A stretch of DNA of 64,000 nt. Source: Candidatus Nomurabacteria bacterium (GTDB lineage Bacteria > Patescibacteriota > Minisyncoccia > Phycocordibacterales > UBA918). The DNA lies in assembly GCA_023898585.1 (NCBI GenBank), contig CP060229.1, forward strand, positions 526,763 through 590,762. Direction: 5' to 3'. The stretch's first letter is position 1. Each line of letters begins with the position of its first letter. A program made the translations under genes and the position numbers. This document shows, piece by piece, positions 32,338 to 63,720 of this stretch. The notes beneath the pieces are model-generated. The model did not search any database, was not told where the DNA came from, and worked only from the letters and a program-made list of their open reading frames with translations.

Positions 32338-32338
32338 A

Positions 32339-33475: not shown

Positions 33476-33496
33476 TCAACTGAAAATTTTGTTTTT

Positions 33497-35957: not shown

Positions 35958-35997
35958 AAAAATGAGGCGGTACTCATCCGAATGTCAAATTATACTT

Positions 35998-37245: not shown

Positions 37246-37374
37246 CTTGTTTGTTTTGTTATAGTAACTTACTATAACAGGTGTTGAAAGGGTTAGGTTG
37301 TTTAGTCTTGGTTTTATCAGTAATTGTACGGAAAGAGTAACGCAAGATTCTGACAATAAAGTACAATAGTATTT

Positions 37375-39761: not shown

Positions 39762-39849
39762 TAATCAAAACCTTATTAACATCCTTATATTACCGTAAAA
39801 AATTAAAGTGATAGACTAATTTTCATTAGACACTAATTTTAGTCAAATA

Positions 39850-43197: not shown

Positions 43198-45426
43198 ATG
43201 AAAGATATTTCAAAAGCGATAGTGTACGCGGGTTTGTTTCTAGTGCCCATGCTCACTCTTTATGTGGAAAATAATTATTTTTTCCCCTTTATTACCGGTA
43301 AGAATTTTTGGTTTAGAATAATCGTAGATATAGTTTTTGCTTCTTGGGTAATCTTGGCTCTTTATGAAGTCAAATACCGTCCGAAAATATCTGGCATAGT
43401 CTGGAGTTTTGGGGCGCTTCTCGTGATCATGTTTTTTGCTAACTTGTTCGGCTTACACCCCAGTTCAAGTTTTTGGAGCAACTTCGAACGCATGGATGGT
43501 TACGTCTCACTCTTGCACACCTTCATGTACATGCTCGTTCTTGGGAGTATGCTTTCTGTCGAAAAACACTGGAAATATTTCCTCAACACCTCTCTCGTAA
43601 TCGCGTTCATGGTCGCTTTCTACGGTCTCGCTCAGTACGGCGGTTTTATAGACGGGAGCAGTCGTATCGACAGTCGTCTTGGTAACGCCGCTTACATGGC
43701 TATTTACATGCTCTTTCATATCTTCATCGCATTTTGGCTTTTTGTGGAATCGCGTAATGTCATGCACAAGGTAATTTATGGTCTCCTTTCCGCGATGTTC
43801 ACTTTTGTCTTGATTGAAACAGGTACCAGAGGTACGACAATCGGTCTTATCGTCGGCATTATGGTGATGTCAGCCTACATTGGATTTTTCGGAACGCAGT
43901 TCAAAGAATATCGCAAATACGCCATCGGCGGTTTTGTTGTCTTGTTTATCGCCATCGGTGCGTTTATCGTCGCTCGTGATTCTGCTTTTATTCAAAACAG
44001 CCCCAACCTGGCTCGTATCGCCAATATCTCAGTCGATGATCTCAAAATCAGAAGTATTATCTGGGGTATGGCTTGGGAAGGAGTAAAGGAAAGACCTCTG
44101 TTGGGATATGGTCAAAGTAACTTCAATTACGTCTTTAACGAAAAATACGACCCGCGTCTCTATGGTCAAGAACAGTGGTTCGACCGCTCACACAATATCT
44201 TTATGGACTGGCTAGTGACCGGCGGTTTCTTAGGTCTCATCGTCTACCTCAGCATTTTCGGCTGGTGTGTCTATTATCTCTTGATCCGTCCCATATTAGA
44301 TAAGGACGACAATTCATTTACAGTGATGGAAAGAGGTGTTTTGCTCGGTATTTTAGCCGGGTATTTCACTCACAACCTCGTGGTCTTCGATAACATAATC
44401 AGTTACATATTCTTTGCGATAATTCTTGGTCTCATCAACTCTCGGGTGGGTATCATTCCTTTGAAACTCACAAATTTAAAAGTCGATAAATTGATCATTA
44501 ACCAATTCGCCACGCCGGTTATGGTTGTCGCTTTAATTGCCAGTATTTACACTTTTCATGTCCCGGGCATGCAGGCGGCCGGTGACATAATAGACGCCTT
44601 TCGTGCGGAAGATCCAGGGGCGAGATTGGAAGCTTTCCAGCGTGCTATCGCCAGAGATTCATTCGCGCACCAAGAAATAACTGAGCAATTGTCTCAGCAA
44701 TCCATGAGCATGGTTCGCAATCCACAGGCTAGTGAAGAAGTGAAAAAAGCTTTCACCAATGAAGCCGAAACACAGCTAATGCGTTTAGTCGAAGAAAAAC
44801 CCGGTGACGCTCGCATTCATGTTTTCATTGGCAGTTACTATCGCTCCGTCGGACAGTTGGATAAGGCTGAAGAGCAAATGGCGTTGGCGAGAAGTTATTC
44901 TCCAAACAAACAAGCCATCATCTCCCAACAAGGTTTCGTTGCTTTATCGAAGGGTGAAAATGAAGTGGCGAGAGATTATTTCAAAACAGCATTTGAATTA
45001 GATAAAAGAAACCTCGAAGCTCGTGAATACTACGCAGCGTCGCTCTTTTATGTAAATGACTCCGCCGGAGCAAGAGCCTTGATGGAATCTGAGGAAGGAG
45101 TTGATATTAGCAGTGATGATATTAAAAAAAGATTTGCCAAGAGCGATTTTCTTATCAGCTCAGCCAACCAGTTTGAGCAATTCTCCTTCGCCTCGGAACT
45201 GTTTGAGTATAGGGTCGGCGCAAAACCGGACCAGAGTCAAGACTGGGTCCATCAGCCACAGAACTGGGCCACTCTCGCTTACTTATATTACAAACAAGGC
45301 GAGAACGACATGGCTGTCTCCACCTTAAAGAGAGCCATTGAAGCGATTCCTGAATTCTCAGAAACCGCAAACTGCTTTGCTGACAACATTGAAAACGGAA
45401 GAGAACCACAAGAAAATTGTGAGTAA
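43198..45426 (+). CDS. O-antigen-ligase/polymerase (Wzy_C) domain membrane protein with C-terminal TPR repeats
   Basis: About 10-12 TM helices. Wzy_C-like periplasmic loop (IWGMAWEGVKERPLLGYGQSNFNYVF...HNIFMDWLVTGG). The C-terminal ~300 aa carry TPR-like repeats (e.g. RDYFKTAFELDKRNLEAREYYAASLFY). Confidence 0.7.
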   Translation: MKDISKAIVYAGLFLVPMLTLYVENNYFFPFITGKNFWFRIIVDIVFASWVILALYEVKYRPKISGIVWSFGALLVIMFFANLFGLHPSSSFWSNFERMDGYVSLLHTFMYMLVLGSMLSVEKHWKYFLNTSLVIAFMVAFYGLAQYGGFIDGSSRIDSRLGNAAYMAIYMLFHIFIAFWLFVESRNVMHKVIYGLLSAMFTFVLIETGTRGTTIGLIVGIMVMSAYIGFFGTQFKEYRKYAIGGFVVLFIAIGAFIVARDSAFIQNSPNLARIANISVDDLKIRSIIWGMAWEGVKERPLLGYGQSNFNYVFNEKYDPRLYGQEQWFDRSHNIFMDWLVTGGFLGLIVYLSIFGWCVYYLLIRPILDKDDNSFTVMERGVLLGILAGYFTHNLVVFDNIISYIFFAIILGLINSRVGIIPLKLTNLKVDKLIINQFATPVMVVALIASIYTFHVPGMQAAGDIIDAFRAEDPGARLEAFQRAIARDSFAHQEITEQLSQQSMSMVRNPQASEEVKKAFTNEAETQLMRLVEEKPGDARIHVFIGSYYRSVGQLDKAEEQMALARSYSPNKQAIISQQGFVALSKGENEVARDYFKTAFELDKRNLEAREYYAASLFYVNDSAGARALMESEEGVDISSDDIKKRFAKSDFLISSANQFEQFSFASELFEYRVGAKPDQSQDWVHQPQNWATLAYLYYKQGENDMAVSTLKRAIEAIPEFSETANCFADNIENGREPQENCE

Positions 45427-49915: not shown

Positions 49916-50260
49916 ATGACAATAATAACAAGAATTTTATTTAACTCACTGGGGTTGATTTTGATATCAAAACTCATCGATGGAATTACCGTCGATGGTC
50001 TTTATCCAGCCATTATTGCTTCAGTGGTTTTGGTTTTGTTTAATGTGATAATCAGGCCGATATTGCTAATACTGACTCTGCCGATCACTATTCTCACGCT
50101 CGGTCTGTTTGCTTTTGTGGTAAATGGTGCACTATTCCTTTTCGCCGCCTCTTTTATCGAAGGTTTTGAAGTGGCCAATTTTTGGTATGCTTTGCTAGGT
50201 TCGATTTTGATGAGTATTGTCAGTACGGTGGGAAACAGGTGGATCAGCAAAGAAAGTTGA
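49916..50260 (+). CDS. Four-TM membrane protein of the DUF360/YvlD ('phage holin 4') superfamily
   Basis: 114 aa. Hydrophobic segments SLGLILISKLI, IIASVVLVLFNVIIRPILLILTLPITILTLGLFAFVVNGALFLFAA, WYALLGSILMSIV. Confidence 0.5.
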   Translation: MTIITRILFNSLGLILISKLIDGITVDGLYPAIIASVVLVLFNVIIRPILLILTLPITILTLGLFAFVVNGALFLFAASFIEGFEVANFWYALLGSILMSIVSTVGNRWISKES

Positions 50261-53071: not shown

Positions 53072-54058
53072 ATGGACAAAGTGACATTTGACAAAGTTGA
53101 GTATGTAAAAGCCACTGTCGCTGCGAAGAGCTTTCGTTATTCATCAGACTATATTGGTCAGCTTTGCAGAGCAAAAAAAGTTGACGCCAGGCTAGTAGGA
53201 AGGACATGGTTTGTTAACGTAGATTCCATAAAAAGTTATCGCCACACAAAGAAAAACAAAAAGTCCACGAAAGGTTCTGCAAAAGATAGCAAACTGGATA
53301 CGGCTAGAGAAACCAGACCATTACGCTTAGACGTACCATCAGTCTTAAGTAATAAAACGGTAAAGATCATCTCAGCCAACAACTACAGGCCAAGTACAAC
53401 TCGTCTGTTGCGTGTGGCGTACGATAGAGACGAAGAAGCTCTCATCCCATCGCTTACTAAGAAGCAAGCAATGGCACCTAAAACAATCGTTATAAATCAG
53501 GCCGACGCCAAAAAGGTGACGATTTCTGGTAAAGATACGAAATCTCTTTCTTTTGCACCGACAAGTCTCCCCGACATTGCTCTATCCGGCAAGTTGAAAA
53601 TCACGGATTTAGTTGACGATGAAATACCAACTAGTGATACAAATTCTAGCCATAAAAACAAAGTCAAGTCGGCTGGCAAGATTTTAACCAGTAACAAGGG
53701 CAGAGAATACATCGCTAAGAAAATGGGAGAATCAAAAGCCAATAACAAGCATCCCTCAGAGGTTTCGAAGGAAGAAGCGTTTTTCAATAAAATTCTTGAC
53801 GATAAAAACATTGTTTCTAAAAATAGTCAGATTGGCACAATTATGCCTTCACAGTTTACGCCATTATCTATTAAAGAAGGTCGTGCGCACAAAAAACTCT
53901 CGATTATCGTCCTTGCCTCGCCTTTATTGGCGGTTGTGGTCGCTACACTTTGTTCGGCCATCTTGTTCTCTGCTGATTCTAGAGTCGTCGCCTCGGAATC
54001 TTTTTTCGAATCTAATATAGTTTTTCAAGTTGCGAATTTGCTAGAAGTTTTTGAGTAA
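53072..54058 (+). CDS. Membrane protein with N-terminal excisionase/MerR-type HTH (HTH_17-like) domain. Paralogue A.
   Basis: N-terminus VEYVKATVAAKSFRYSSDYIGQLCRAKKVDARLVGRTWFVNVDSIKSY matches the excisionase-family HTH pattern (...EAA..L.VS...I.rl.r.g.l.a.kvGR.W.i..e.l..y). C-terminal TM helix LSIIVLASPLLAVVVATLCSAILF. Confidence 0.5.
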   Translation: MDKVTFDKVEYVKATVAAKSFRYSSDYIGQLCRAKKVDARLVGRTWFVNVDSIKSYRHTKKNKKSTKGSAKDSKLDTARETRPLRLDVPSVLSNKTVKIISANNYRPSTTRLLRVAYDRDEEALIPSLTKKQAMAPKTIVINQADAKKVTISGKDTKSLSFAPTSLPDIALSGKLKITDLVDDEIPTSDTNSSHKNKVKSAGKILTSNKGREYIAKKMGESKANNKHPSEVSKEEAFFNKILDDKNIVSKNSQIGTIMPSQFTPLSIKEGRAHKKLSIIVLASPLLAVVVATLCSAILFSADSRVVASESFFESNIVFQVANLLEVFE

Positions 54059-54136: not shown

Positions 54137-54862
54137 ATGTCGCGCACATTAGATATTAATGGGAGGTTGTTGCATCCGGTCAAGGAGGCGGCCGCTAGTG
54201 TTTCTTATTCAAGAGATTACGTAACTCGATTGGCTCGTGAAAATAAAATCATCGCAACCAATGTCGGTCGACAGTGGTTCGTAGATTTGGAGTCTCTCAA
54301 AGGATACATCGAGAATGTTTCCATTGAACAGGAGATACGCAAAAAGCAACTAAGCTTCGATCGAATAAAAGAGCGAGAAATCAGAGAAGCAACAATAAAG
54401 CAACATACTTTACATTTAGGTAAAGTAAAAATGTTGAATGTAAAAGCTGTCTTAGTTGCTAGCTTTGTTTTGTCGCTCGGTCTTTTTTCCGGTTTTGTCG
54501 CCCACCTGCTTATCTCATCTTCCGATTCCCTCCAAGCGCAAGTGGTCGACACGAAAGGCAGGATAGCAGATTTGTCACAACCGAATAACAACTCAAACGT
54601 AGTCGCCGAGAAAGTTTCAGATGGGAGGAGTCAAGTCTATTCTCCGGAGAACGGACTAAGAATAATGGAGGATGTGCAAAATGGAGTATTACTGCTCCCG
54701 AATTATGGTTCAACTACCGTTGAAGATTTGTTTTCCGATGCAGTGGTGGTTCGTGATTTGTCCGACGGTTCCCAAGTCATACATATGATTAATGGAGAAG
54801 GTCGGGAAGTTGGTACGGAAATACCTTTCGTGGTTGTTCCGGTAAAACATTTAAATGAATGA
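54137..54862 (+). CDS. Membrane protein with N-terminal excisionase/MerR-type HTH (HTH_17-like) domain. Paralogue B.
   Basis: N-terminus LLHPVKEAAASVSYSRDYVTRLARENKIIATNVGRQWFVDLESLKGY aligns residue-for-residue with paralogue A. TM helix VKAVLVASFVLSLGLFSGFVAHLLI follows. Its stop overlaps the start of the giant gene. Confidence 0.5.
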   Translation: MSRTLDINGRLLHPVKEAAASVSYSRDYVTRLARENKIIATNVGRQWFVDLESLKGYIENVSIEQEIRKKQLSFDRIKEREIREATIKQHTLHLGKVKMLNVKAVLVASFVLSLGLFSGFVAHLLISSSDSLQAQVVDTKGRIADLSQPNNNSNVVAEKVSDGRSQVYSPENGLRIMEDVQNGVLLLPNYGSTTVEDLFSDAVVVRDLSDGSQVIHMINGEGREVGTEIPFVVVPVKHLNE

Positions 54863-57800
54863 GTATGATTTTTAGCAAGCAAAAAATTGGAGTTGTATTC
54901 GCACTGATACTTTCTTCAAGTTTCAGTTTGTTGGTTTTTCAATCTTCTACCGCCCACGCCGAACCCACCCCCACCATCAACTACCAAGGTAAGCTAACCG
55001 ACACCAATGGCCTCGCAGTCCCTGACGGCACATACAACATGCGCTTTTGGCTACTACAAAGCGAAGCGCAAGCGACCACGAGTGCTCTTTGGACAGAATC
55101 TCTCACCGGTAGCAATAAGGTGCAAGTTACCGATGGTCTATTCTCCATCATGCTTGGTTCCACGAGCGCTCTCACTTCCGTTGACTTCAATCAAACCCTC
55201 TACCTGGGAGTGGAGATAGGTGGTTCCACCACACCCGCTTGGGACGGTGAAATGTCACCTCGTAAACCACTCGGTACCGTCCCGGCTTCTTTCGAATCAT
55301 ACAAACTAGGAGGAGTAGCTTCTTCTTCTTTCCTACGCTCTGATCAAGCCGATACCATCTCCGCCAGCACTGCTTCCACGCTACTCACTATCATTCAAAA
55401 TGGAGTGGGAGATATCCTCAATATCTTCGACGGAGCTACTGAAGTCTTCACTATCCTCGATGGTGGCAATGTCGGTATCGGCTCATCATCTCCAAACAGC
55501 AAACTCACCATCGCCGGTAATACCAACATAGACAGCTACACCAACCTCCCCGGTTACTTCATCAACTCCATGCCGGCGGTTACTGGTTCGACTACTTTAA
55601 ACAACTTCTTCTTTGCTGGGGCGTCGAGTACGAGTTACTATTTCGGAGGTTATAACTATGCTATCGGAGATGGAGCGCTCACTAACTTAAACTGGGGAAG
55701 CAACAATATTGCAATTGGTCAAAACGCTATGAAGGCATCCGGTACCGCAGCAACCAATTTCTCCAATAACAACGCTCTGGGGAAGGATGCACTTTTCTCT
55801 ATAACTAGTGGTTCAAACAATAATGCTTTGGGAGAAGGTACATTGTCTACTAATACAACCGGTGGGGGCAATAATGCTTTTGGTTACCAAGCTCTCACCA
55901 GTAACGTCTCCGGCGGAGGTAACAATGCTCTTGGCGGGTGGGCTTTGCGTTTCAACACCACTGGTATGAATAACAACGCTATCGGCCCCAATGCAATGCA
56001 AGCCAATACCAGTGGTTCATACAATAATGTTTTGGGTACAGACGCTCTTTATACCAACACCACCGGTTCATACAATAATGCTTTTGGCTATAATGCTATG
56101 TACAGCAATACCGTGGGTTCTCATAATAACGCCATCGGTGAAGCTGCACTTGGCTACAACACTACCGGCTTACGCAATAATGCTTTCGGTTACAGTGCTC
56201 TCCTTAACAACAACGGCACCGGCACCATAGCGATCGGCTACCAAACCGCCGACAACGCCACCGGCGTCGACCGCGGTATCTTCATCGGCTACGACATCGA
56301 TGCTTTCTCTACTACTCAGGACGATGTGCTCAACATTGGTAACCTTATCTTCGGTAACAGTGTCAACGGTACCGGTCAAAATATCAGTACCGGTAACATC
56401 GGTATCGCGACCACTTCTTCGACTGCTCGCTTAACAGTCCAGTCTACCGGCACCTCCGATATCCTCAATCTCTTTGAAACGGGAGGCAGTGAAGTGTTCA
56501 CTGTACTGGAGAGTGGTAACGTTGGCATCGGCACCTCTTCACCCTACGCCAAACTCGGCGTAGCCGGTAACCTGGTAGCAACCGGTGTCATCAACACGCA
56601 GACTAACTCAGCCAACACTTTCGCCGGTCACCTTGACATCAACGGCACCGCCACCTCCACCTTCGCAAACGGCATCGAACTCGAAGGTGGTTGCTTCCGC
56701 GACCAAAGTGGTACCTGCATCAGCGCTCAAGGTGACACGCAGATAGTAGTCGCAGCAAACGACACCGACGTCAATCTCAAAGCCTACGCCGACTATGTTG
56801 CGGATGGTACGAACGACCAAGATGAAATCCAGTCTGCTATCGACTACGTCTACGCTAACGGTGGGGGAACCGTTCATCTTCTAGCCGGTACTTTCACCGT
56901 TGGTACCACTACCTACACCGACTCCGCTATCAGACTCGCTACTTCTACTCAACTCATTGGACAAGGAGATGCGACCGTCATCAAACTCCGTAACAGCTTC
57001 AACGCCAACATCTCCATCGTGCACGCGAAAAACGTCCAAGATGTTTACGTTGGACATTTGGCGGTGGATGGAAACAAGGCGAATCAGAGTGGGGGGACTG
57101 ATTATGGTGTTAATTTGCAAAACACTGGATCTAGTACTGTAGAAAATACATATGTACATAGTCTCTTTTATTACGGAATAAACGTGCAGGGTAATAATAA
57201 TAATGTTGTCTCTAACACGGTTCATAATAATCAATTGAGAGGTATCCAACTGACAGGTAGTTACAATACTGCTTCCCATAATATGATTAGTGATAATGGT
57301 AGTTGGGGTATATTTGTTGATGGTTCAATGAGTAACGTAACTAATAACATTATCAAGAACAATCCTACTGGTATACGTGTTAATGCGAGTTCAAACACAA
57401 TTTCTGGTAATCAGATTAGTCAAAGTACTACTTACGGAATAGATCTATCATCGAGTGCCTCCTACAACATAATAAATAGCAACGACATTATCGTGAATGC
57501 TGGGATAGGTATATATTTGAATTTGGTGACAGGTTATAACACAATTTCAGGTAACAATGTATATTTTAATGGGTATGGTATATACCTGAACACAAGTGCT
57601 AATAATACAGTCACTGCTAACAATTTTAGTGAAAACAGTTACGGTATTTACGGGACATGCTTTGCCTGTGTCTTGAATGCCAATACACTTACCGGTAATG
57701 ACACTGCCATTTATTTGGTTAACGGGGGATTGATATCTAGCAATTCTATCACTAACAATCAATTGATAGACAACGGTGGCACTGGCGCTACCAGTAGCAT

Positions 57801-60800
57801 AACATTGGTAAACGAAGACAATGCCCTCCTTTCCGGCAACCGCATCTACGACACCGCCGGTACCGGCTATGCCATCGATATCGACGCTGCTTCAGCTGGC
57901 GTGGTGCTCACCGACAACGTCTACTCCGGCACCGGGGCTACCGCCATCCGCGACTTAAGCTCCAACACTGAGTACACCCAGCACAACCGTATCACAGTCA
58001 ATGCCACCGACTCTGACTTTGCTTCTGGCGCATACACCGCGCTTAAAATAACCCAATCCGGTACTGGAGACATTGCCAACTTCTTTGATGGCTCCAATGA
58101 GGTGCTTACCATCCTTGATGGGGGTAACGTCGGTATCGGCACCACCACTCCAACCGCTCTCCTCACTGTCGGTAGTAGTACCGCGAGCTACCTCACCGCC
58201 GGTAACCTATACAACAGCGCTCTCGTCTCCGGTGCTCTTGAAGTCGGTGGACTCTCACACTTAGGTGGTGGTCTTATGAGCTATGCTTCGAGTACCTTCC
58301 TCTCTGGTCTTTCCATTGTCGGTAACGCCACTACCACCGGTACTCTCATTGTCCAAGGCACCGGCACCTCTACCTTCGGAGGAGGACTCCAAACCACCGG
58401 CAACCTCGACATCAACGGCACCGCCACCTCCACCTTCGCCAACGGCATCGAACTCGAAGGTGGTTGCTTCCGCGACCAAAGTGGCACTTGTATCACGAGC
58501 GGTACCTACGGTGACACACAGGTGGTAGTAGCAGCGAGCGACTCTGCATCTAACGAAAAAGCCCTAGCTGACTACACCGCTGACGGTACGAACGACCAAG
58601 ATGAAATCCAGTCTGCTATCGACTACGTCTACGCTAACGGTGGGGGAACCGTTCATCTTCTAGCCGGTACTTTCACCGTTGGTACCACTACGTACACTGA
58701 CAGTGCGATTAGACTCGCTACCTCCACCCAACTGATTGGACAGGGAAAGGCGACTGTCATCAAACTAAGAGATAACTTCAACAACAACATTAACATTGTC
58801 CACGCGTACAACGTCCAAGACGTCTACGTTGGACACTTGGCGGTGGATGGAAACAGGGACAATCAAGGATCAGGGTACAATGCTGGTGTATATCTAGAAG
58901 CAGGATCTTCCACTGTTCAGTATACGTATGAGCATGATTTACGAGGTGCCGGTATTGTTGTGCAAGGTTTTGGTGTTGCCGGAGGAGGTAATAACAACAG
59001 AATAATTTCGAACGTGGCTAATTCAAATGATACCGGCATCAGTATTAGTAATAGTGATAATAACATTATTTCTGGCAACACTGCCAGCAATAACGATACG
59101 TATACTACCAGTAGCGGTATTTATTTATCGGTTAGCAAGTACAACACCATATCCAACAATATTACCAATTACAACGGACAGCACGGTATCTATTTGAATG
59201 GAACTGTTTGGTATAACACCATTTCTAATAATGTGGCAGACGGAAATACTTATGATGGTATTAGGTTGAGTTCTATAAAAAATAGTACCATTATCTCAAA
59301 CTCACTCAGTAACAATGGATTAGCTGGAATTGGTTTGTCAGTCGGTGTTAGAAACACGATAACTGGTAATTCTATCTATAACAATGTATATGGCTTATGG
59401 CATAGTAATGGTAGTAATAATTCAATCAGTGCCAATTTTATAGAAGAAAACGATTATGGTATTTACATGAATCCAGGTAACTCTAATACTGTTACTGGTA
59501 ACTATTTATACAGCAACGGTGGCTCGTCAGCCACTAGTAGCATTACCCTCATTTCATCAGACAATAATATATTTGACGGTAACTACATATACGACACCGC
59601 CGGTACAGGTTATGCTATAGATATTGATGCTTCCTCAGATAACAACGTCCTCGCTAACAACGTCTACTCCGGCACCGGGGCAACCGCCATCCGCGACCTA
59701 AGCTCCAACACCAAGTACACGGAGCACAACCGTATCACCGTCAACGCCACCGACTCTGACTTTGCTTCGGGAGCATACACCGCGCTTACCATCACCCAGT
59801 CGGGAACAGGGAATATAGCTCAGTTCTTTGACGGCGGTACCGAAGCTTTTACTATAATGGACGGTGGAAATGTGGGAATCGGAGCTACCTCAACCAGCGA
59901 CAAACTAACCATCGCCGGCAACACCAACGTCTCCAGCTACACCAACCTCCCCGGTTACTTCATCAACTCCATGCCGGCTGTTACCGGTTCGACTACTTTA
60001 AACAACTTCTTCTTTGCGGGGGCGACTTCCAGTAGTTTCTACCTCGGAAGCCATAACTACGCGATGGGAAATGGCGCTCTTACCAACCTCGGTCAAGGAA
60101 GCTACAACTTCGCAGTTGGTGGAAACGCTCTTGCTGGTTCGAGTACGGCTGGTATGCACGGTTCCAGTAACATCGCCCTTGGCTATAGCACTCTTTTTAG
60201 TAACGTCTGGGGCGAACACAACAACGCTCTTGGTAACGAAGCATTGTATAGCAACACAAACGGTGGAGGTAATAATGCTCTCGGTTACCAAGCTCTTCGC
60301 TACAGTACAACCGGTGGAGCTAACAATGCTCTCGGTTATCAAGCACTCTTCAGTAACGTAACTGGTCACCGTAACAACGCTCTTGGTTACCAAACTCTCT
60401 TCTATAACACCACCGGAGCAGACAATAACGCCATTGGTGACAGCGCACTGTTTGTCAATAGTATAGGATCACGTAACAACGCCATTGGGTACAACACCAT
60501 CTTTAACAATACCGTTGGTTCAGACAATAACGCAATCGGACATAATGCTTTGTATAGCAATACTACCGGATCACGTAACAACGCCCTCGGTTACCACACT
60601 CTATACAGCAACAACGGCACCGGCACTATCGCCATCGGCTACCAAACCGCCGACAACGCCCTCTCCGTCGATCGCAGTATCTTCATCGGCTACAACATCG
60701 ACGCCTTCAGTACCACCGCCGACGATCAGCTCAACATCGGTAACTTAATCTTCGGTAACAACGTCAACGGTACTGGTCAAACCATCAGCTCCGGTAACAT

Positions 60801-62673
60801 CGGTATCGCCACTACTTCATCTACTGCTCGCTTAACAGTCCAGTCTACCGGCACCTCCGATATCCTCAATCTCTTTGAAACGGGAGGCAGTGAAGTGTTC
60901 ACGGTGTTGGAGAGTGGTAATGTTGGGATTGGTACTTCTTCGCCCTACGCCAAACTTTCCGTATTGGAGACAGGGGGTGGATCAAAATCGTTATTCGTAA
61001 TTGCTAGCTCAACCGGTGGTACGCCAAGTGGAGTCTTTGCGGTCGATGCTTACGGAAGGGTTGGTATTGGCAGTACCTCCCCCAAAGCCTCGCTTTTTAT
61101 CGCTGACACTGTCGGTAACAATGGCGTTTCAATTGCTGAAACTGAATACCCTGATTGGATGGGAGACGGAGGTATATTTATGAAAGGGGCAGTTTTTGCC
61201 AAAGGTGGTTATATTGCGGAGAACAGCGACACTTTCCGCTGGGGAGACTCTTCAACCAGGATAGGCGGTGTTGGAAGTTCCGGTACAGGATACTTTACGT
61301 TTGACACGGAGTCTACGGAGCGCATGCGCCTTACCGGCAGTGGCTACCTCGGCATCGGCACCACCACCCCCAACTCAAAACTCACCGTCAACGGTACCAC
61401 CACCATCGGAATGTATGGTGCAACCAGTACTCAAGCCGGGCTTCAAATTGGCTTCGGCGGAATCTGTGTCGACAATGACGGCTCCTGCGTTGCTTCCACT
61501 ACCGGCCGAATCTCAGCCGTTAACTTCCATACCGGCAACTCCGACCTAGCGGAAATGTACTTCAGTGATGTCGAATTACTGCCTGGAGAGCTGGTTTCTT
61601 TAATCAGCGGGTTCTCGGTAGATAGAGCAAGTAAGAAAGACTCTGCCCCTGTGCTTGGTGTAGTTTCCACCAAACCAGGATTGCTTCTTGGTCACGATGA
61701 TACTTCGCTAAACGAAGGGGAAACCGGTTACCCAATAGCACTATCCGGACGTGTGCCAGTTAAGATTTCTACCGAAAACGGAGTAATCAAACGAGGCGAC
61801 CAGCTCATGCTCTCGTCTCTCCCTGGAATTGCTATGAAAGCAACCGGCACCGGTATGGTAGTCGGTATAGCACTCGAAGACTTCAATGAAGGTAGAAAGT
61901 ATTCAGACGGCTACATCAATCAAGTTAATGATGATCTTGGCACTACCACTCCGGAAGAAGTGGAAGAGATTGCAAGAAAGATGATCAAAGAACGAACTGA
62001 TACTGAATACCTTGATAACGGCACTACAGTTAGAGTGGGACAAGTGGTAATGTTTGTTAACAGTTCTTATCGGTGGTTGGATGATCGGGAATTGGCCGGA
62101 CTGCAGACACTAATGAGCACGTCAAATATTACCGTCTTTGGTAAAAACGAAAACGAAACTCTATTTGATCGCTTAGTTATGCTGGCCAATCGGTTTGTCG
62201 ATGGGATACTTTCAGTCTTTGAACTCAGGGCCAACCGAGTAGAAGTAGCCGATGAACTTTGTGTTGATGATGTGTGTGTGACTGCCGATGATCTGCGAGC
62301 GTTACTACAAGACGACGAACGTCTGTCTGGTGGTAACAATAATACTGCTGTGCCAGATACTGACGATAACGGTGGTGCGACTCCGGATGTCGATACGGAT
62401 GGTGACTACACGTCTACAGTTAAGGACGAACAACAACCAGAAGAAGATAATATAGATGTGCCGATTGAATCAGTTTCTGATGATGCGGTAGCGGGGAATA
62501 GTACCGATGGAGATTTAGGTTCCGAATCAACCCTTTCAACTGAACAGACGACAGAGACAGAAGAGGAAAGTACCGTCTCTGAATCGGAGTCAGAATCTGA
62601 AACTGTGGCAAATGAAGAGACTTCTATCGAAGAAGCAGCGCCGGGAGTAACAACAGAAGAACCAACGACATGA
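54859..62673 (+). CDS. Giant (2,604 aa) secreted mosaic surface protein related to tail-fibre/tailspike proteins. It has a signal peptide, five or more GNVGIGTxxP tail-fibre motifs, two 17-residue NNAxG repeat tracts, two pectate-lyase-3-type right-handed beta-helix domains, a C-terminal tail-fibre-like domain and an acidic tail.
   Basis: Signal peptide MSMIFSKQKIGVVFALILSSSFSLLVFQSSTAHA. Two copies of DGTNDQDEIQSAIDYVYANGGGTVHLLAGTFTV, resembling the Pectate_lyase_3/tailspike N-cap. Each is followed by PbH1-type repeats (e.g. NNIISGNTASNNDTY...YNTISNNITNYNGQHGIYLNG). Repeat tracts (NNALGYQALxSNTTGxx)n of YadA-head/Hep_Hag style. Repeated motif FTVLESGNVGIGTSSPYAKL. The single ORF is uninterrupted over 7.8 kb. 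Confidence 0.8.
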   Translation: MSMIFSKQKIGVVFALILSSSFSLLVFQSSTAHAEPTPTINYQGKLTDTNGLAVPDGTYNMRFWLLQSEAQATTSALWTESLTGSNKVQVTDGLFSIMLGSTSALTSVDFNQTLYLGVEIGGSTTPAWDGEMSPRKPLGTVPASFESYKLGGVASSSFLRSDQADTISASTASTLLTIIQNGVGDILNIFDGATEVFTILDGGNVGIGSSSPNSKLTIAGNTNIDSYTNLPGYFINSMPAVTGSTTLNNFFFAGASSTSYYFGGYNYAIGDGALTNLNWGSNNIAIGQNAMKASGTAATNFSNNNALGKDALFSITSGSNNNALGEGTLSTNTTGGGNNAFGYQALTSNVSGGGNNALGGWALRFNTTGMNNNAIGPNAMQANTSGSYNNVLGTDALYTNTTGSYNNAFGYNAMYSNTVGSHNNAIGEAALGYNTTGLRNNAFGYSALLNNNGTGTIAIGYQTADNATGVDRGIFIGYDIDAFSTTQDDVLNIGNLIFGNSVNGTGQNISTGNIGIATTSSTARLTVQSTGTSDILNLFETGGSEVFTVLESGNVGIGTSSPYAKLGVAGNLVATGVINTQTNSANTFAGHLDINGTATSTFANGIELEGGCFRDQSGTCISAQGDTQIVVAANDTDVNLKAYADYVADGTNDQDEIQSAIDYVYANGGGTVHLLAGTFTVGTTTYTDSAIRLATSTQLIGQGDATVIKLRNSFNANISIVHAKNVQDVYVGHLAVDGNKANQSGGTDYGVNLQNTGSSTVENTYVHSLFYYGINVQGNNNNVVSNTVHNNQLRGIQLTGSYNTASHNMISDNGSWGIFVDGSMSNVTNNIIKNNPTGIRVNASSNTISGNQISQSTTYGIDLSSSASYNIINSNDIIVNAGIGIYLNLVTGYNTISGNNVYFNGYGIYLNTSANNTVTANNFSENSYGIYGTCFACVLNANTLTGNDTAIYLVNGGLISSNSITNNQLIDNGGTGATSSITLVNEDNALLSGNRIYDTAGTGYAIDIDAASAGVVLTDNVYSGTGATAIRDLSSNTEYTQHNRITVNATDSDFASGAYTALKITQSGTGDIANFFDGSNEVLTILDGGNVGIGTTTPTALLTVGSSTASYLTAGNLYNSALVSGALEVGGLSHLGGGLMSYASSTFLSGLSIVGNATTTGTLIVQGTGTSTFGGGLQTTGNLDINGTATSTFANGIELEGGCFRDQSGTCITSGTYGDTQVVVAASDSASNEKALADYTADGTNDQDEIQSAIDYVYANGGGTVHLLAGTFTVGTTTYTDSAIRLATSTQLIGQGKATVIKLRDNFNNNINIVHAYNVQDVYVGHLAVDGNRDNQGSGYNAGVYLEAGSSTVQYTYEHDLRGAGIVVQGFGVAGGGNNNRIISNVANSNDTGISISNSDNNIISGNTASNNDTYTTSSGIYLSVSKYNTISNNITNYNGQHGIYLNGTVWYNTISNNVADGNTYDGIRLSSIKNSTIISNSLSNNGLAGIGLSVGVRNTITGNSIYNNVYGLWHSNGSNNSISANFIEENDYGIYMNPGNSNTVTGNYLYSNGGSSATSSITLISSDNNIFDGNYIYDTAGTGYAIDIDASSDNNVLANNVYSGTGATAIRDLSSNTKYTEHNRITVNATDSDFASGAYTALTITQSGTGNIAQFFDGGTEAFTIMDGGNVGIGATSTSDKLTIAGNTNVSSYTNLPGYFINSMPAVTGSTTLNNFFFAGATSSSFYLGSHNYAMGNGALTNLGQGSYNFAVGGNALAGSSTAGMHGSSNIALGYSTLFSNVWGEHNNALGNEALYSNTNGGGNNALGYQALRYSTTGGANNALGYQALFSNVTGHRNNALGYQTLFYNTTGADNNAIGDSALFVNSIGSRNNAIGYNTIFNNTVGSDNNAIGHNALYSNTTGSRNNALGYHTLYSNNGTGTIAIGYQTADNALSVDRSIFIGYNIDAFSTTADDQLNIGNLIFGNNVNGTGQTISSGNIGIATTSSTARLTVQSTGTSDILNLFETGGSEVFTVLESGNVGIGTSSPYAKLSVLETGGGSKSLFVIASSTGGTPSGVFAVDAYGRVGIGSTSPKASLFIADTVGNNGVSIAETEYPDWMGDGGIFMKGAVFAKGGYIAENSDTFRWGDSSTRIGGVGSSGTGYFTFDTESTERMRLTGSGYLGIGTTTPNSKLTVNGTTTIGMYGATSTQAGLQIGFGGICVDNDGSCVASTTGRISAVNFHTGNSDLAEMYFSDVELLPGELVSLISGFSVDRASKKDSAPVLGVVSTKPGLLLGHDDTSLNEGETGYPIALSGRVPVKISTENGVIKRGDQLMLSSLPGIAMKATGTGMVVGIALEDFNEGRKYSDGYINQVNDDLGTTTPEEVEEIARKMIKERTDTEYLDNGTTVRVGQVVMFVNSSYRWLDDRELAGLQTLMSTSNITVFGKNENETLFDRLVMLANRFVDGILSVFELRANRVEVADELCVDDVCVTADDLRALLQDDERLSGGNNNTAVPDTDDNGGATPDVDTDGDYTSTVKDEQQPEEDNIDVPIESVSDDAVAGNSTDGDLGSESTLSTEQTTETEEESTVSESESESETVANEETSIEEAAPGVTTEEPTT
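56423..56555 (+). repeat. Intragenic near-identical DNA repeat, copy 1 of the ARLTVQSTGTSDILNLFETGGSEVFTVLESGNVGIGTSSPYAKL module. Copy 2 is at ~60824-60958.
   Basis: About 77 consecutive identical nucleotides (ctgctcgcttaacagtccagtctaccggcacctccgatatcctcaatctctttgaaacgggaggcagtgaagtgttcac) and about 130 nt at >90% identity, read directly. Confidence 0.8.
58585..58690 (+). repeat. Intragenic near-identical DNA repeat (beta-helix N-cap DGTNDQDEIQSAIDYVYANGGGTVHLLAGTFTVGTT), copy 2. Copy 1 is at ~56806-56912. The adjacent DINGTATSTFANGIELEGGCFRDQSGTC repeat is at ~56634-56712 and ~58409-58484.
   Basis: About 106 consecutive identical nucleotides between the two copies. Identity then decays to mostly synonymous differences. 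Confidence 0.8.
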
Positions 62674-63012: not shown

Positions 63013-63720
63013 ATGATCACAAATTTTGTACACGTAAGTCGCGCCTTTATCTACGCATTCGTAGCCAGCATCACCACTGTCTCGCTATTGCTTGCGGGTT
63101 TCTTCTTGACTGAGCCAGCAATTGGACACAGTCAGGATGACACTGCTGTCTTTACAGTAAGACAACAAATCACCGGAGAGACTTCATTCTTAGTTGATCC
63201 TTCTCCTGTTACAATGTCAGGTACCATCAGTGGTATCACTGGTGGACAAGCTACCGGCACGACAGATTTTGTCGTTATATCCAACAATGGTGCCGGATAT
63301 AGAGTGGATATCAGTTTCACCGATGAGAACGCGGACGGTGAGATGATGGAAGGAGAAACAACTGACGGTGGTGAGATCCGCGACTATGGGGCTGGTCTCA
63401 CTCAACCTTCATATGGCTACACCAGTAGCTCATCCGCCCAGTTTGCCTATACTGTGACCTCCTTAACTTCAACTGACACCGATCCTTCTTTCTTGAACAA
63501 TGGCTCCAACGCTTGTAATTCCGGTTCCACACAGACTGCTAACACCTGTTGGAAAGCACCGGACACAGCGGCCTTCACCATAGTTAATCGGTCGGGACCT
63601 GCTACTACTGGAGCTACCTCAACTCTTACTTTTAATGTGACTGTACCAAACGGTGCGATACCGGTACCAAAGGCGGAATATTATACCGCTACCGCCACCT
63701 TGTCACTTTACGTAAACTAA
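63013..63720 (+). CDS. Secreted/membrane-anchored Thr/Gly-rich hypothetical protein
   Basis: N-terminal hydrophobic segment AFIYAFVASITTVSLLLAGFFL. T/S/G-rich body with two Cys pairs. Lies immediately downstream of the giant gene. Confidence 0.5.
   Translation: MITNFVHVSRAFIYAFVASITTVSLLLAGFFLTEPAIGHSQDDTAVFTVRQQITGETSFLVDPSPVTMSGTISGITGGQATGTTDFVVISNNGAGYRVDISFTDENADGEMMEGETTDGGEIRDYGAGLTQPSYGYTSSSSAQFAYTVTSLTSTDTDPSFLNNGSNACNSGSTQTANTCWKAPDTAAFTIVNRSGPATTGATSTLTFNVTVPNGAIPVPKAEYYTATATLSLYVN

What the first reader, a model, noticed from the sequence alone, without database searches (positions are those of the whole stretch)
54859..62673. 2,604-aa mosaic surface protein assembled from phage tail-fibre/tailspike-like modules, including two polysaccharide-depolymerase-type beta-helices
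This is a single uninterrupted 7.8-kb ORF with a signal peptide.
(a) It contains at least five copies of a ~40-aa motif (G.GDI.N.F.G..EVFT.LDGGNVGIGT..P..KL.VAG). I recall this motif as the signature of bacterial 'tail fiber domain-containing' proteins.
(b) It has two long tracts of a 17-residue Asn/Gly repeat (NNALGYQAL.SNTTG..), in the style of YadA-head left-handed beta-roll repeats.
(c) It has two copies of a Pectate_lyase_3-like N-cap (DGTNDQDEIQSAIDYVYANGGGTVHLLAGTFTV). Each is followed by many PbH1 parallel-beta-helix repeats. This is the architecture of phage tailspike/depolymerase enzymes that bind and cleave surface polysaccharides.
(d) It ends in a C-terminal domain and a 100-aa acidic tail.
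The module order is X-[NNAxG]-R-D-[beta-helix] followed by R'-D'-[beta-helix']-X'-[NNAxG]'-R-Cterm. So the gene arose by mosaic duplication rather than simple tandem repetition.
In a small-genome, possibly host-attached bacterium, a 2.6-kDa-per-residue-scale surface protein with two putative glycan-cleaving beta-helices is a strong candidate host-attachment or cell-wall-remodelling organelle. The combination of modules is not one I recognise as described.
Basis: partly seen in the sequence, partly recalled or inferred. Interest (0 to 1): 0.85.

Follow-up and report, generated by a model that had tools for sequence, protein, structure and literature searches.

The report
Self-processing tailspike-like fibre of Patescibacteria
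This 2,604-residue gene of a tiny, probably host-dependent bacterium encodes a secreted fibre built like a phage tailspike, with sugar-binding beta-helices and a phage phi29-type C-terminal folding domain predicted to cut itself off; it belongs to a large, undescribed family that may be how these bacteria recognise hosts.

Summary
ORF 54859-62673 is intact. It has a signal peptide, five full 'GNVGIGTxxP..KL' connector motifs, two 17-residue Asn/Gly solenoid tracts, two right-handed beta-helices and an acidic tail.

Three points change the interpretation.

2. By sequence, the beta-helices are closest to AlgE mannuronan epimerase A-modules. By fold, they also resemble the HK620 and Sf6 tailspikes. 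They lack the AlgE catalytic Asp152, His154 and Asp178, so glycan binding is supported and cleavage is not.

3. The gene is one member of a large Patescibacteria family (492 loci in species genomes). Family members share a conserved N-terminal domain and C-terminal chaperone around a shuffled middle. The gene sits at a conserved chromosomal locus behind two HTH-transmembrane genes, where orthologues range from 1,995 to 4,147 aa.

The YadA analogy is unsupported. The exact protein is already in NCBI under a generic name. I read it as a cellular counterpart of phage tailspikes and Bdellovibrio MAT fibres: a new variant of a known kind.

The parts
54859..54960 (+). Signal peptide (aa 1-34; predicted cleavage AHA|EP)
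   Evidence: Read directly from the translation: basic n-region, hydrophobic core, AxA site. No predictor was run.
54961..55353 (+). Conserved N-terminal domain (aa 35-165), the family-defining 'base' and candidate cell-surface anchor
   Evidence: 75-76% identical in the positional orthologues. It sits at the N-terminus of about 85 of the 120 top homologues. 492 loci in species genomes encode it. It has no Pfam or PDB match.
55351..55524 (+). R1 connector motif (aa 165-222; ..GDI.N.F.G..EVFT.LDGGNVGIGSSSPNSKLTIAG)
   Evidence: Self-BLAST E 1e-14 to 1e-33 against the other R copies; GNVGIG core at aa 203.
55525..56406 (+). Module A (aa 223-516): lead-in plus 10 units of a 17-residue NNAxG solenoid repeat, with a capping region
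   Evidence: NNAxG units are spaced at 17 aa, after one 21-aa first step. The AF2 model has strands every 17 residues, pLDDT 65-87. PHROG 23837, 6002 and 4636 hit the sister copy A'. No YadA or Hep_Hag hit.
56407..56571 (+). R2 connector motif (aa 517-571)
   Evidence: The A2 profile region spanning the end of A and R2 aligns to Bdellovibrio bd2133 (8ond) at E 1.3e-3.
56572..58008 (+). Module B (aa 572-1050): Cys-loop lead-in, Pect-lyase_3/AlgE-like N-cap and right-handed parallel beta-helix
   Evidence: Pfam Beta_helix 7.6e-27 and NosD 9e-20; PF12708 below threshold. AlgE4 2pyg at E 1e-6 for the single sequence and 8e-26 for the profile. AF2 pLDDT 83-96. Foldseek finds AlgE4/6 and the HK620 and Sf6 tailspikes. 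The AlgE catalytic positions Y149/D152/H154/D178 read Y/N/Q/T here.
58009..58182 (+). R3 connector motif (aa 1051-1108)
58183..58431 (+). Ser/Thr/Gly/Ala-rich linker (aa 1109-1191) between the two beta-helix modules
   Evidence: No internal repeat partner, no Pfam hit. 41% identity to one stretch of P0001.
58432..59751 (+). Module B' (aa 1192-1631): second N-cap plus beta-helix
   Evidence: 79-85% identical to B in the cap, 77% at the C-terminal end and below 48% in the central turns. NosD best stretch at aa 1358-1527. The catalytic-equivalent positions read A/V/Q/S.
59752..59925 (+). R4 connector motif (aa 1632-1689)
59926..60807 (+). Module A' (aa 1690-1983): second NNAxG solenoid with 9 units
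   Evidence: 62-93% identical to A. 17-aa spacing. PHROG hits at aa 1694-1950.
60808..60963 (+). R5 connector motif (aa 1984-2035)
   Evidence: 93% identical to R2.
60964..61542 (+). Distal shaft, the predicted mature C-terminus (aa 2036-2228): R-like repeats and a conserved GGICVDNDGSC loop, ending at Ser2228
   Evidence: Aligns to the Bdellovibrio MAT fibres 8oml and 8ojn at E 2e-3 and 6e-3. Only its last ~35-90 residues are shared with the orthologues.
61543..62358 (+). Peptidase_G2 / phi29 gp12-like intramolecular chaperone (aa 2229-2500), starting at the DLAEMYF motif; predicted autocleavage S2228|D2229
62359..62673 (+). Acidic low-complexity tail (aa 2501-2604) plus stop codon; predicted to leave with the chaperone
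   Evidence: D+E 32%, K+R 1%, S+T 30%. Comparable acidic or Pro-rich tails occur in the homologues.
53072..54058 (+). Upstream HTH-TM protein 1 (328 aa): N-terminal excisionase-like HTH and a C-terminal TM segment; co-conserved neighbour
   Evidence: Translation. 36-40% identical proteins sit at the same position in L001, L002 and L005. Its HTH is 50% identical to that of the next gene.
54137..54862 (+). Upstream HTH_17-TM protein 2 (241 aa); its stop overlaps the giant gene's start (ATGA); candidate partner or anchor
   Evidence: PF12728 at 2.5e-5, below threshold. TM segment seen in the translation. Homologues lie within 3 kb upstream in 48 of 76 N-domain loci and are 39-45% identical in L001, L002 and L005.

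Best explanation
The gene encodes a Sec-exported subunit of about 265 kDa of a homotrimeric, phage-tailspike-like surface fibre. The organism is a Patescibacteria (Paceibacteria/Kaiserbacteria-type) bacterium.

Assembly, inferred from phi29 gp12: the C-terminal Peptidase_G2-type intramolecular chaperone (aa 2229-2500) brings three chains into register and nucleates folding of the intertwined shaft. It then cuts itself off between Ser2228 and Asp2229. This removes the chaperone and the acidic tail, 376 aa in all.

Mature fibre (about aa 35-2228): it alternates intertwined triple-beta connectors (the R 'capping-loop' motifs) with per-chain modules. These modules are two 17-residue-repeat solenoids and two AlgE/tailspike-like right-handed beta-helices, which present grooves for polysaccharide binding.

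Anchoring and recognition: the conserved N-terminal domain holds the fibre on the cell, possibly through the two co-conserved upstream HTH-TM proteins. The variable middle provides recognition of host or prey surface glycans and evolves by module shuffling at the R junctions.

Shown: the sequence anatomy, the folds, homology of the C-domain to gp12, the family frame and the synteny.
Inferred: trimerisation, autocleavage, surface retention and a host-glycan target.
For: C-domain is a gp12-type chaperone:
- PF11962 in 12 of 19 members.
- The profile aligns DLAEMYFS onto residue 1 of the cleaved gp12 fragment.
- Foldseek 3suc at 1.4e-5.
- The confident part of the model starts exactly at the SDLAE motif.
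- Asp and Glu of D-x-A-E are at least 90% conserved in the alignment.
- gp12's C-domain is required for trimer folding and is cleaved afterwards, with Ser as the last mature residue (PMC3357383; PMC4690869).

Trimeric-fibre connectors: the R motif aligns to the capping loops of the Bdellovibrio MAT fibres 8oml, 8ojn and 8ond. This motif is described for S74-type trimeric beta-helices (PMC10769870). As expected for intertwined segments, these regions model poorly as a monomer.

Glycan-binding modules: Pfam Beta_helix and NosD, AlgE4 profile E 8e-26, and HK620, Sf6 and RbmB as structural neighbours.

Cellular, not viral: there is a signal peptide. The chromosomal locus SecA-Obg-GatB-HTH-HTH-fibre is conserved in four genomes. 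The orthologues there are 1995, 2604, about 2900 and 4147 aa.

Frame with a variable middle: the N-domain is 76% identical between orthologues, the chaperone 50-55% and the beta-helix body 25-31%. About 80 of 120 homologues have both end domains but different middles.

Relatives with the same N-domain carry Peptidase_S74 at the C-terminus instead (P0063, P0070). The two chaperone types are therefore interchangeable, as in phage fibres.
Against: - The query's own C-domain does not reach any Pfam hit, and the sequence-only PDB hit is weak (E 0.38).
- No trimer was modelled, so trimerisation is by analogy.
- The catalytic residues of the nearest beta-helix relatives are absent, and no ligand can be named.
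- No anchor mechanism is visible: there is no LPXTG, lipobox, SLH or TM segment in the fibre, and the N-domain has no known relatives.
- phi29 gp12 matures in the cytoplasm, and from memory (not verified here) its cleavage was reported to depend on ATP. An exported protein would have to process without ATP.
- The host-recognition role rests on analogy with phages and Bdellovibrio, not on data from Patescibacteria.
Confidence: 0.6

Rival explanations
1. One reading: the two beta-helices are active depolymerases (lyase or hydrolase). The fibre would cleave host capsule or cell-wall polysaccharide, or remodel the bacterium's own wall, as phage tailspikes do.
For: The structural neighbours include true enzymes: the HK620 and Sf6 endoglycosidase tailspikes, the alginate epimerase/lyase 8ja4, and the RbmB lyase. 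The N-cap and PbH1 architecture is that of the PF12708 family. The central turns of B and B' have diverged (<48% identity) while the caps are 79-85% identical, as expected if the groove determines specificity.
Against: The only relatives close enough to align residue by residue are the AlgE epimerases. Their catalytic residues are Tyr149, Asp152, His154 and Asp178 (PMC7385640). Module B reads Y/N/Q/T at these positions and B' reads A/V/Q/S. None of 10 homologous modules keeps Asp152 with His154. No alternative acidic pair could be identified with the tools used. Many beta-helix fibre modules only bind.
Confidence: 0.3
2. It is a structural envelope or S-layer-like protein, or one that handles the cell's own exopolysaccharide, with no role in recognising another cell.
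For: The gene lies in a conserved housekeeping neighbourhood. A Wzy_C-type polymerase/ligase gene lies 10 kb upstream. The best sequence relatives, the AlgE enzymes, act on the producer's own secreted polymer. Third codon positions are unusually C-rich compared with neighbouring genes; codon selection for high expression is one possible cause, among others not tested.
Against: Structural envelope proteins are usually conserved in architecture. Here positional orthologues differ two-fold in length and swap whole modules (beta-helix, LVIVD propeller, Laminin_G). That is the pattern of receptor-binding proteins under diversifying pressure. The epimerase catalytic residues are absent.
Confidence: 0.15
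3. It is a prophage or phage-derived tail fibre gene (a viral structural gene), not a cellular surface protein.
For: PHROG families for virion structural and tail spike proteins hit it. The chaperone domain is otherwise known from phage appendages. NCBI calls relatives 'tail fiber domain-containing protein'.
Against: The protein has a Sec signal peptide. It is flanked by SecA, Obg, GatB and MurB, with no other phage structural genes nearby. The same chromosomal position is occupied in four different genomes. The N-domain was found only in Patescibacteria genomes.
Confidence: 0.03
4. The ORF is an assembly artefact: several paralogous fibre genes joined or collapsed through their shared repeats.
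For: This gene type demonstrably breaks assemblies. 25 of 80 species-genome loci end within 500 aa of the start of the N-domain. All of the listed N-domain hits in the protein database, 76 and then 120, are fragments of 254 aa or fewer. Read-level data could not be inspected.
Against: Internal repeats are only 78-93% identical, and the longest exact repeat is 107 nt. There is one family N-domain at the start and one chaperone at the end, in frame over 7.8 kb. The module grammar (A-R-B-R) is the same as in independent orthologues. The identical protein comes from a 995-kb contig, and an independent MAG reproduces the compared part of the C-terminal region exactly.
Confidence: 0.03

Closest known systems
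Bacteriophage phi29 gp12 pre-neck appendage (tailspike) with its Peptidase_G2 auto-chaperone (PDB 3GQ7, 3GQH, 3SUC; Pfam PF11962)
   Different: The window protein is cellular and Sec-exported, not a virion protein. It is 2604 aa against 854 aa for gp12 (gp12 length from memory) and has two beta-helices and two solenoid modules. Its chaperone carries an extra helical region and an acidic tail. It has a different, Patescibacteria-specific N-terminal domain in place of a virion-binding domain. Its own sequence falls below Pfam detection.
Bdellovibrio bacteriovorus mosaic adhesive trimer (MAT) fibres (Caulton et al. 2024, PMC10769870; PDB 8OML, 8OJN, 8OND)
   Same: Both are signal-peptide-bearing, phage-fibre-like proteins of a bacterium that lives on other cells. 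Both have a conserved ~130-aa domain right after the signal peptide and the same capping-loop motif in the shaft. Both are mosaic families. In this family some members end in Peptidase_S74, like 13 of the 21 MATs.
   Different: In MATs the C-terminal tip is the variable part and the proteins are about 1000 aa. Here both ends are conserved, the middle varies, and the proteins are 1500-4400 aa. This member uses a G2-type chaperone, not S74. N-domain homology to the MAT N-domain could not be tested, and no Bdellovibrio protein appeared in the N-domain searches.
AlgE-type mannuronan C-5 epimerase A-modules (AlgE4 2PYG, AlgE6 5LW3)
   Same: These are the best sequence and structure match for the beta-helix modules, including the N-cap (profile E 8e-26, Foldseek 1.5e-10). 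Both are secreted modular proteins that can carry two beta-helix modules.
   Different: Catalytic Asp152, His154 and Asp178 are replaced. There are no RTX R-modules. No PDB or Pfam relative was found for the NNAxG repeat.
Phage tailspike depolymerases (HK620, Sf6, P22 type)
   Same: They share the right-handed parallel beta-helix fold, at Foldseek E 1e-9 to 1e-6. They are trimeric fibre proteins whose beta-helices bind surface polysaccharide.
   Different: There is no detectable sequence homology. The catalytic residues cannot be mapped. The context here is cellular, and two helices are arranged in series along one chain.

Membership tests
Peptidase_G2 / phi29 gp12-type intramolecular chaperone (PF11962) | Sequence match to the PF11962 profile | tested here: inconclusive
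   The window sequence itself gives no hit even at E<=10. However, 12 of 19 aligned homologues of the same domain hit PF11962 at E<=1, best 3.7e-7, and P0095 carries a precomputed PF11962 hit.
Peptidase_G2 / phi29 gp12-type intramolecular chaperone (PF11962) | Fold of the gp12 C-terminal fragment | tested here: met
   [not shown]
Peptidase_G2 / phi29 gp12-type intramolecular chaperone (PF11962) | Ser|Asp-x-Ala-Glu cleavage and catalytic motif at the start of the domain | tested here: met
   S2228-D-L-A-E-M-Y-F aligns to D-F-A-E-Y-F at residue 1 of the cleaved gp12 chain. Asp, Ala, Glu and Tyr are at least 90% conserved in the alignment. An [SAT]D[LIVYM]AE motif is present in 73 of 120 homologues, reading SDLAE in all 10 printed. 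Ser is the last residue of mature gp12 (PMC4690869).
Peptidase_G2 / phi29 gp12-type intramolecular chaperone (PF11962) | Autoproteolytic release after trimer folding | not testable with these tools
   This needs expression and SDS-PAGE or mass spectrometry of wild type against S2228A, D2229N and E2232Q mutants.
Bdellovibrio MAT superfamily | Signal peptide followed by a conserved ~130-aa N-terminal domain homologous to the MAT N-domain | tested here: inconclusive
   A signal peptide and a conserved 131-aa domain are present. No MAT N-domain sequence was available for comparison. N-domain searches returned only Patescibacteria and no PDB relative.
Bdellovibrio MAT superfamily | Trimeric beta-helical shaft with capping-loop motif (V-G-G/N-pi-x-x-P-x-x-x-L) | tested here: met
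   Eight GNVGIGTxxPxxKL-type motifs are present. HMMER aligns them to 8oml (1.8e-3), 8ojn (5.5e-3) and 8ond (1.3e-3). The motif definition comes from PMC10769870. Trimerisation itself was not modelled.
Bdellovibrio MAT superfamily | Conserved base with a diversified C-terminal adhesive tip (S74 or non-S74) | tested here: not met
   Here the C-terminal domain is conserved across the family (50-55% identity) and the middle varies. The terminal domain is G2-type.
Peptidase_S74 (endosialidase-type intramolecular chaperone, PF13884) | PF13884 match with the SDxxxK Ser-Lys dyad | tested here: not met
   There is no PF13884 hit for the whole protein or the C-terminal pieces. The motif reads SDLAEM, with no Lys at +5. 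Some relatives do carry PF13884.
AlgE-type mannuronan C-5 epimerase / alginate lyase A-module | Homologous right-handed beta-helix with N-cap | tested here: met
   2pyg at E 9.7e-7 (single sequence) and 7.8e-26 (profile); Foldseek 1.5e-10.
AlgE-type mannuronan C-5 epimerase / alginate lyase A-module | Catalytic Tyr149, Asp152, His154, Asp178 | tested here: not met
   Module B reads Y/N/Q/T and B' reads A/V/Q/S. None of 10 aligned modules keeps Asp152 with His154. The residue list comes from PMC7385640.
Pectate_lyase_3 / Pect-lyase_RHGA_epim (PF12708) | Score above the Pfam gathering threshold | tested here: not met
   17.4 bits against a cut-off of 27, E 3.9e-3, on module B only. The resemblance of the N-cap is real but below threshold.
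Trimeric autotransporter adhesin (YadA-like head, Hep_Hag) | YadA_head/Hep_Hag repeats and a C-terminal YadA beta-barrel anchor | tested here: not met
   No YadA_head, Hep_Hag or YadA_anchor hit for the protein or for 7 aligned A-modules at E<=10, and no PDB hit for the A-module profile. The repeat unit here is 17 residues; from memory, the YadA-head repeat is 14.
Phage tailspike depolymerase | Virion-attachment N-domain, phage genomic context, demonstrated or mappable catalytic site | tested here: not met
   The context is chromosomal housekeeping genes and the protein has a signal peptide. Only the beta-helix fold is shared. The catalytic site cannot be mapped.

The most novel reading that the evidence does not exclude
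Patescibacteria possess a phylum-wide, previously unrecognised host-recognition organelle. It would be a Sec-exported, self-processing, tailspike-like trimeric fibre with conserved end domains bracketing a rapidly shuffled cassette of glycan-binding modules. The fibre would dock onto co-encoded membrane proteins that carry a cytoplasmic HTH DNA-binding domain. Contact with a host surface could then be coupled directly to transcription. The natural fusion P0116 (HTH_17 + TM + fibre + S74) would be the single-chain version of this arrangement.
Probability: 0.12. Interest if true: 0.85.

Novelty: new variant of a known kind. Interest (0 to 1): 0.6.

Why it matters
How the non-Saccharibacteria Patescibacteria find and hold their hosts is an open question. 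Recent work calls for structural data on the attachment site, and a 2024 perspective names only type IV pili and unnamed predicted adhesins (PMC10936435, PMC11665869).

This gene provides a concrete, testable candidate. It belongs to a very large family: 492 loci in species-representative genomes, and 230 50%-identity clusters at E<=1e-30 for a query covering the distal shaft and chaperone. The family is built like phage receptor-binding proteins, sits at a conserved locus, and has a middle that differs even between positional orthologues.

The work also shows that the phi29-type (G2) auto-chaperone, known from phage appendages, is widely used by cellular secreted proteins. This parallels the S74 domain in Bdellovibrio MAT fibres and eukaryotic MYRF.

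There is a practical point as well. These genes systematically break short-read MAG assemblies just after the N-domain, so their diversity is under-counted and most database entries are stubs.

If the predicted S2228|D2229 cleavage is confirmed, annotation of the mature protein changes, because the acidic tail would be a pro-region rather than a surface feature.

Tried and rejected
- Peptidase_S74 at the C-terminus: no Pfam hit and no SDxxxK motif. Rejected.
- YadA-head/Hep_Hag nature of the NNAxG tract: no Pfam or PDB signal for the single sequence or for a 7-module profile. Rejected at sequence level.
- AlgE-type epimerase/lyase activity: homology is real but the catalytic residues are absent. 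Rejected as a family assignment.
- Prophage origin: the context is housekeeping genes and is syntenic in four genomes. Rejected.
- Collapsed-repeat mis-assembly: the repeats are diverged, and the identical protein is on a 995-kb contig. Judged unlikely, but read-level evidence was unavailable.
- Whole-protein self-BLAST returned only the identity hit. It was replaced by chunked BLAST.
- Whole-protein phmmer against PDB gave nothing. Module-wise and profile searches were needed.
- N-domain against PDB and Pfam: no relatives.
- Testing N-domain homology to Bdellovibrio MATs failed. No MAT N-terminal sequence was reachable, and the last homologue search returned only Patescibacteria stubs.
- BLAST of the upstream HTH-TM proteins against the N-terminus of the fusion protein P0116 was not significant (E 0.49). 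The 'Rosetta-stone' link therefore rests only on shared domain type (HTH_17 + TM).
- The look-up of encoding contigs for the window protein found no record.
- Literature searches for a prior description of this family in Patescibacteria/CPR found none. The library is limited to open-access papers.
Full report
**1. Observation**

The window holds one uninterrupted ORF at 54859-62673 (+), 2604 aa. Its N-terminus (MSMIFSKQKIGVVFALILSSSFSLLVFQSSTAHA|EPTP) reads as a Sec signal peptide by inspection.

Chunked self-BLAST gives the layout:

| Element | Residues (aa) |
|---|---|
| Signal peptide | 1-34 |
| N-domain | 35-165 |
| R1 | 165-222 |
| A | 223-516 |
| R2 | 517-571 |
| B | 572-1050 |
| R3 | 1051-1108 |
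| Linker | 1109-1191 |
| B' | 1192-1631 |
| R4 | 1632-1689 |
| A' | 1690-1983 |
| R5 | 1984-2035 |
| Distal shaft | 2036-2228 |
| C-domain | 2229-2500 |
| Acidic tail | 2501-2604 |

- A and A' are 62-93% identical.
- B and B' are 79-85% identical in the cap, 77% at the end, and below 48% in the central turns.
- The R copies match each other at E 1e-14 to 1e-18, and eight GNVGIG-type cores are present.
- A and A' carry 10 and 9 'NNAxG' units. The spacing is exactly 17 residues apart from one 21-residue first step in A.
- The tail is 32% Asp+Glu and 1% Lys+Arg.

**2. Is the ORF real?**

- DNA repeats inside the gene are only 78-93% identical. The longest exact repeat is 107 nt.
- The identical protein (aa 3-2604) is NCBI USN91847.1, 'right-handed parallel beta-helix repeat-containing protein', on a 994,774-bp contig.
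- An independent Candidatus Kaiserbacteria MAG holds a partial protein that is 100% identical over the 103 C-terminal residues compared.
- The ORF has exactly one family N-domain at its start and one family C-domain at its end.

A chimeric join is unlikely, although reads could not be inspected.

**3. The beta-helices**

Pfam gives Beta_helix 5e-38 and NosD 4e-34, and TIGR03804 gives eight repeats. PF12708 (Pectate_lyase_3 type) reaches only 17.4 bits against a cut-off of 27.

A profile of these modules finds, in PDB sequences:
- AlgE4 (7.8e-26), AlgE6 and two other mannuronan epimerases;
- then NosD (1.5e-10) and AlgG.

The AlphaFold model of aa 165-1110 has pLDDT 83-96 over aa ~624-1044. Its Foldseek neighbours are AlgE4/6, the HK620 and Sf6 tailspikes, an alginate epimerase/lyase and the RbmB lyase. 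The fold is thus that of carbohydrate-active beta-helices.

The AlgE catalytic residues are Tyr149, Asp152, His154 and Asp178 (PMC7385640). Module B reads Y/N/Q/T at these positions and B' reads A/V/Q/S. None of ten aligned modules from this and related proteins keeps Asp152 together with His154.

Glycan binding is a reasonable inference. Glycan cleavage is not supported by anything I could test.

**4. The NNAxG tracts**

The model shows a regular solenoid with short strands every 17 residues, pLDDT 65-87. The protein, seven aligned A-modules and their profile give no YadA_head, Hep_Hag or other adhesin-head hit in Pfam, and no hit in PDB. The only annotated relatives are PHROG families of 'virion structural' and 'tail spike' proteins. 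The YadA analogy is unsupported. This is an uncharacterised solenoid repeat shared with phage fibre proteins.

**5. The R motif**

HMMER aligns R-type segments to PDB 8oml, 8ojn and 8ond at E about 1e-3 to 6e-3. These are the Bdellovibrio 'mosaic adhesive trimer' (MAT) fibres. The MAT paper defines the same 'capping-loop' motif on trimeric beta-helices and notes that it also occurs in S74-bearing proteins (PMC10769870). In my monomer model these segments are low-confidence, as expected for chain-intertwined regions. The motif marks trimeric fibre connectors.

**6. The C-terminal domain: the main new finding**

Pfam sees nothing in the window sequence. The large homologues, however, share an invariant 'SDLAE' followed by GVVSTKPG...GRVPVK...GIALE. 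Four lines of evidence identify the domain:

- In an alignment of 19 such domains, 12 members hit PF11962 (Peptidase_G2, IMC autoproteolytic cleavage domain), best E 3.7e-7.
- The alignment's profile aligns DLAEMYFS to residue 1 (DFAEYFES) of PDB 3gqh, the cleaved C-terminal fragment of phi29 gp12.
- The AlphaFold model becomes confident (pLDDT 81-95) exactly from the SDLAE position.

In gp12 this domain is an intramolecular chaperone. Without it the chains aggregate, and after trimer folding it is cleaved off, with Ser as the last mature residue (PMC3357383; PMC4690869).

I therefore predict cleavage between Ser2228 and Asp2229. That would remove the chaperone and the acidic tail, 376 aa in all. 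The mature C-terminus would be the conserved GGICVDNDGSC...HTGNS segment.

**7. Family and locus**

Of the 120 best homologues, about 80 carry the same N-domain at the start and the same chaperone at the end. Between these ends lie very different middles of 1500-4400 aa. They include beta-helices in only about 10, NNAxG tracts, LVIVD propellers and others. A few relatives with this N-domain end in Peptidase_S74 instead (P0063, P0070).

An exhaustive search with aa 2036-2504 (distal shaft plus chaperone) finds 230 50%-identity clusters at E<=1e-30.

The N-domain profile finds 492 loci in species-representative genomes. The best 80 are all Patescibacteria: Nomura-, Kaiser-, Parcu-, Paceibacteria, and others.

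The chromosomal neighbourhood is SecA - small holin-family ORF - Obg - GatB - HTH-TM - HTH_17-TM - fibre. The full order is seen in L001 and L002. In L005, all genes checked (SecA, Obg, GatB and both HTH-TM genes) are in the same order. Across the window and these three genomes, the positional orthologues are 1995, 2604, about 2900 and 4147 aa. Identity between orthologues is:
- N-domain: about 76%;
- chaperone: 47-55%;
- beta-helix body: 25-36%.

This is the signature of a conserved base and assembly device around a rapidly exchanged recognition cassette. The R motifs are the module boundaries. The 'A-R-B-R' supermodule recurs in P0001, P0002, P0010 and P0018.

**8. Mechanism proposed**

- *Shown:* the domain anatomy, the folds, homology of the C-domain to gp12, the family frame and the synteny.
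- *Inferred:* export by Sec; C-terminal chaperone-driven trimerisation; autocleavage at S2228|D2229; a long trimeric fibre held on the cell by the N-domain; and side-on glycan binding by the beta-helices (and perhaps the solenoids) to a host or prey surface.

The upstream HTH-TM genes are candidate partners. Homologues lie within 3 kb upstream in 48 of 76 loci. The second gene's stop overlaps the fibre's start. One relative, P0116, fuses HTH_17, a TM segment, a fibre and S74 in a single chain. However, direct sequence similarity between P0116's N-terminus and the window's HTH proteins is not significant.

Weak points:
- No trimer was modelled.
- No anchoring chemistry can be seen.
- No ligand can be named.
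- From memory (not verified here), gp12 processing was reported to involve ATP, which is unavailable outside the cell.

**9. Comparison with known systems**

It works like a phage tailspike (phi29 gp12 above all) and like the Bdellovibrio MAT fibres.
- *G2-chaperone class:* supported by fold and motif, but not by the Pfam score of this particular sequence.
- *MAT superfamily:* it shares the connector motif and overall logic. It fails the 'variable C-terminal tip' feature, and N-domain homology is untested.
- *Other families:* it is not an S74 protein, not a trimeric autotransporter, and not a catalytically competent AlgE epimerase.

**10. Novelty and verdict**

I found no paper describing this Patescibacteria family. 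Databases call its members 'hypothetical', 'tail fiber domain-containing' or 'parallel beta-helix repeat' proteins.

It is a new variant of a known kind: a cellular, secreted, giant tailspike-like fibre with a G2-type auto-chaperone and conserved ends.

Interest is 0.6. It gives a specific, testable candidate for host recognition in a phylum where that mechanism is largely unknown, but the function still rests on analogy.

Noticed in passing
window 53072-54058 and 54137-54862 (+): Two paralogous genes lie directly upstream of the fibre gene. Each has an N-terminal excisionase-type HTH (50% identical over 40 aa) and one transmembrane segment. The second gene overlaps the fibre's start (ATGA). 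Homologues are found upstream of 48 of 76 N-domain loci and in all three syntenic genomes. A relative, P0116, fuses HTH_17, a TM segment, a fibre and Peptidase_S74 in one protein. It is odd to find a membrane-tethered DNA-binding domain next to, or fused to, an extracellular fibre.
   Followed up: partly
window 54859-62673 compared with the rest of the window: The fibre gene has an unusual base composition. C at third codon positions is 37% and G is 11%, against about 20% and 22-25% in SecA and GatB. This produces a negative GC skew, the only such stretch in a window that otherwise has positive skew, and a GC content 3-6 points higher. It could reflect amino-acid and codon bias of a highly expressed gene, or foreign or recombinant origin.
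   Followed up: partly
L005-L084 (genome-contig loci) and protein hits P0121-P0196, P0313-P0367: This gene family systematically breaks metagenome assemblies. 25 of 80 species-genome loci end within 500 aa of the start of the N-domain. Every listed N-domain hit in the 5.8-billion-protein database is a fragment of 254 aa or fewer, and the named ones are mostly flagged partial. The family's size and diversity are therefore under-represented in MAG-based catalogues.
   Followed up: yes
L001 18821-24444 and L003 11625-16615: In related genomes the fibre gene is followed immediately by a second giant gene. In L001 it is 4206 aa with no Pfam hit. In L003 it is at least 2501 aa with a Laminin_G_3 domain. 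This suggests tandem arrays of giant surface proteins. In this window the next ORF is only 235 aa.
   Followed up: no
window 63013-63720 (+): A 235-aa ORF lies downstream. It has an N-terminal hydrophobic segment and a Thr/Ser/Gly-rich body, and no Pfam hit. It is 48% identical to the ORF at the same position in L002, but is absent from L001 and L005.
   Followed up: partly
window aa 612/620, 934/937, 1203/1211, 2203/2210, 2468/2473 of the fibre protein: All ten cysteines occur as five closely spaced pairs. The pair just before the predicted cleavage site (GGICVDNDGSC) and the pair in the chaperone's C-terminal part (ELCVDDVC) are conserved across the family. They look like small disulfide loops in an exported protein.
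   Followed up: no
window 49916-50260 (+): A 114-aa ORF between SecA and Obg sits at the position where L001 and L002 have a 117-126-aa Phage_holin_4_2 (PF04020) family gene. The window ORF itself was not scanned.
   Followed up: no
window ~32000-40000: A stretch of lower GC (0.36-0.38 against about 0.43 elsewhere) spans several + strand ORFs and one - strand ORF (35998-37356). It may be an island, for example surface-polysaccharide genes. A Wzy_C/O-antigen-ligase-TPR protein lies at 43198-45426.
   Followed up: no
[not shown]
   Followed up: no
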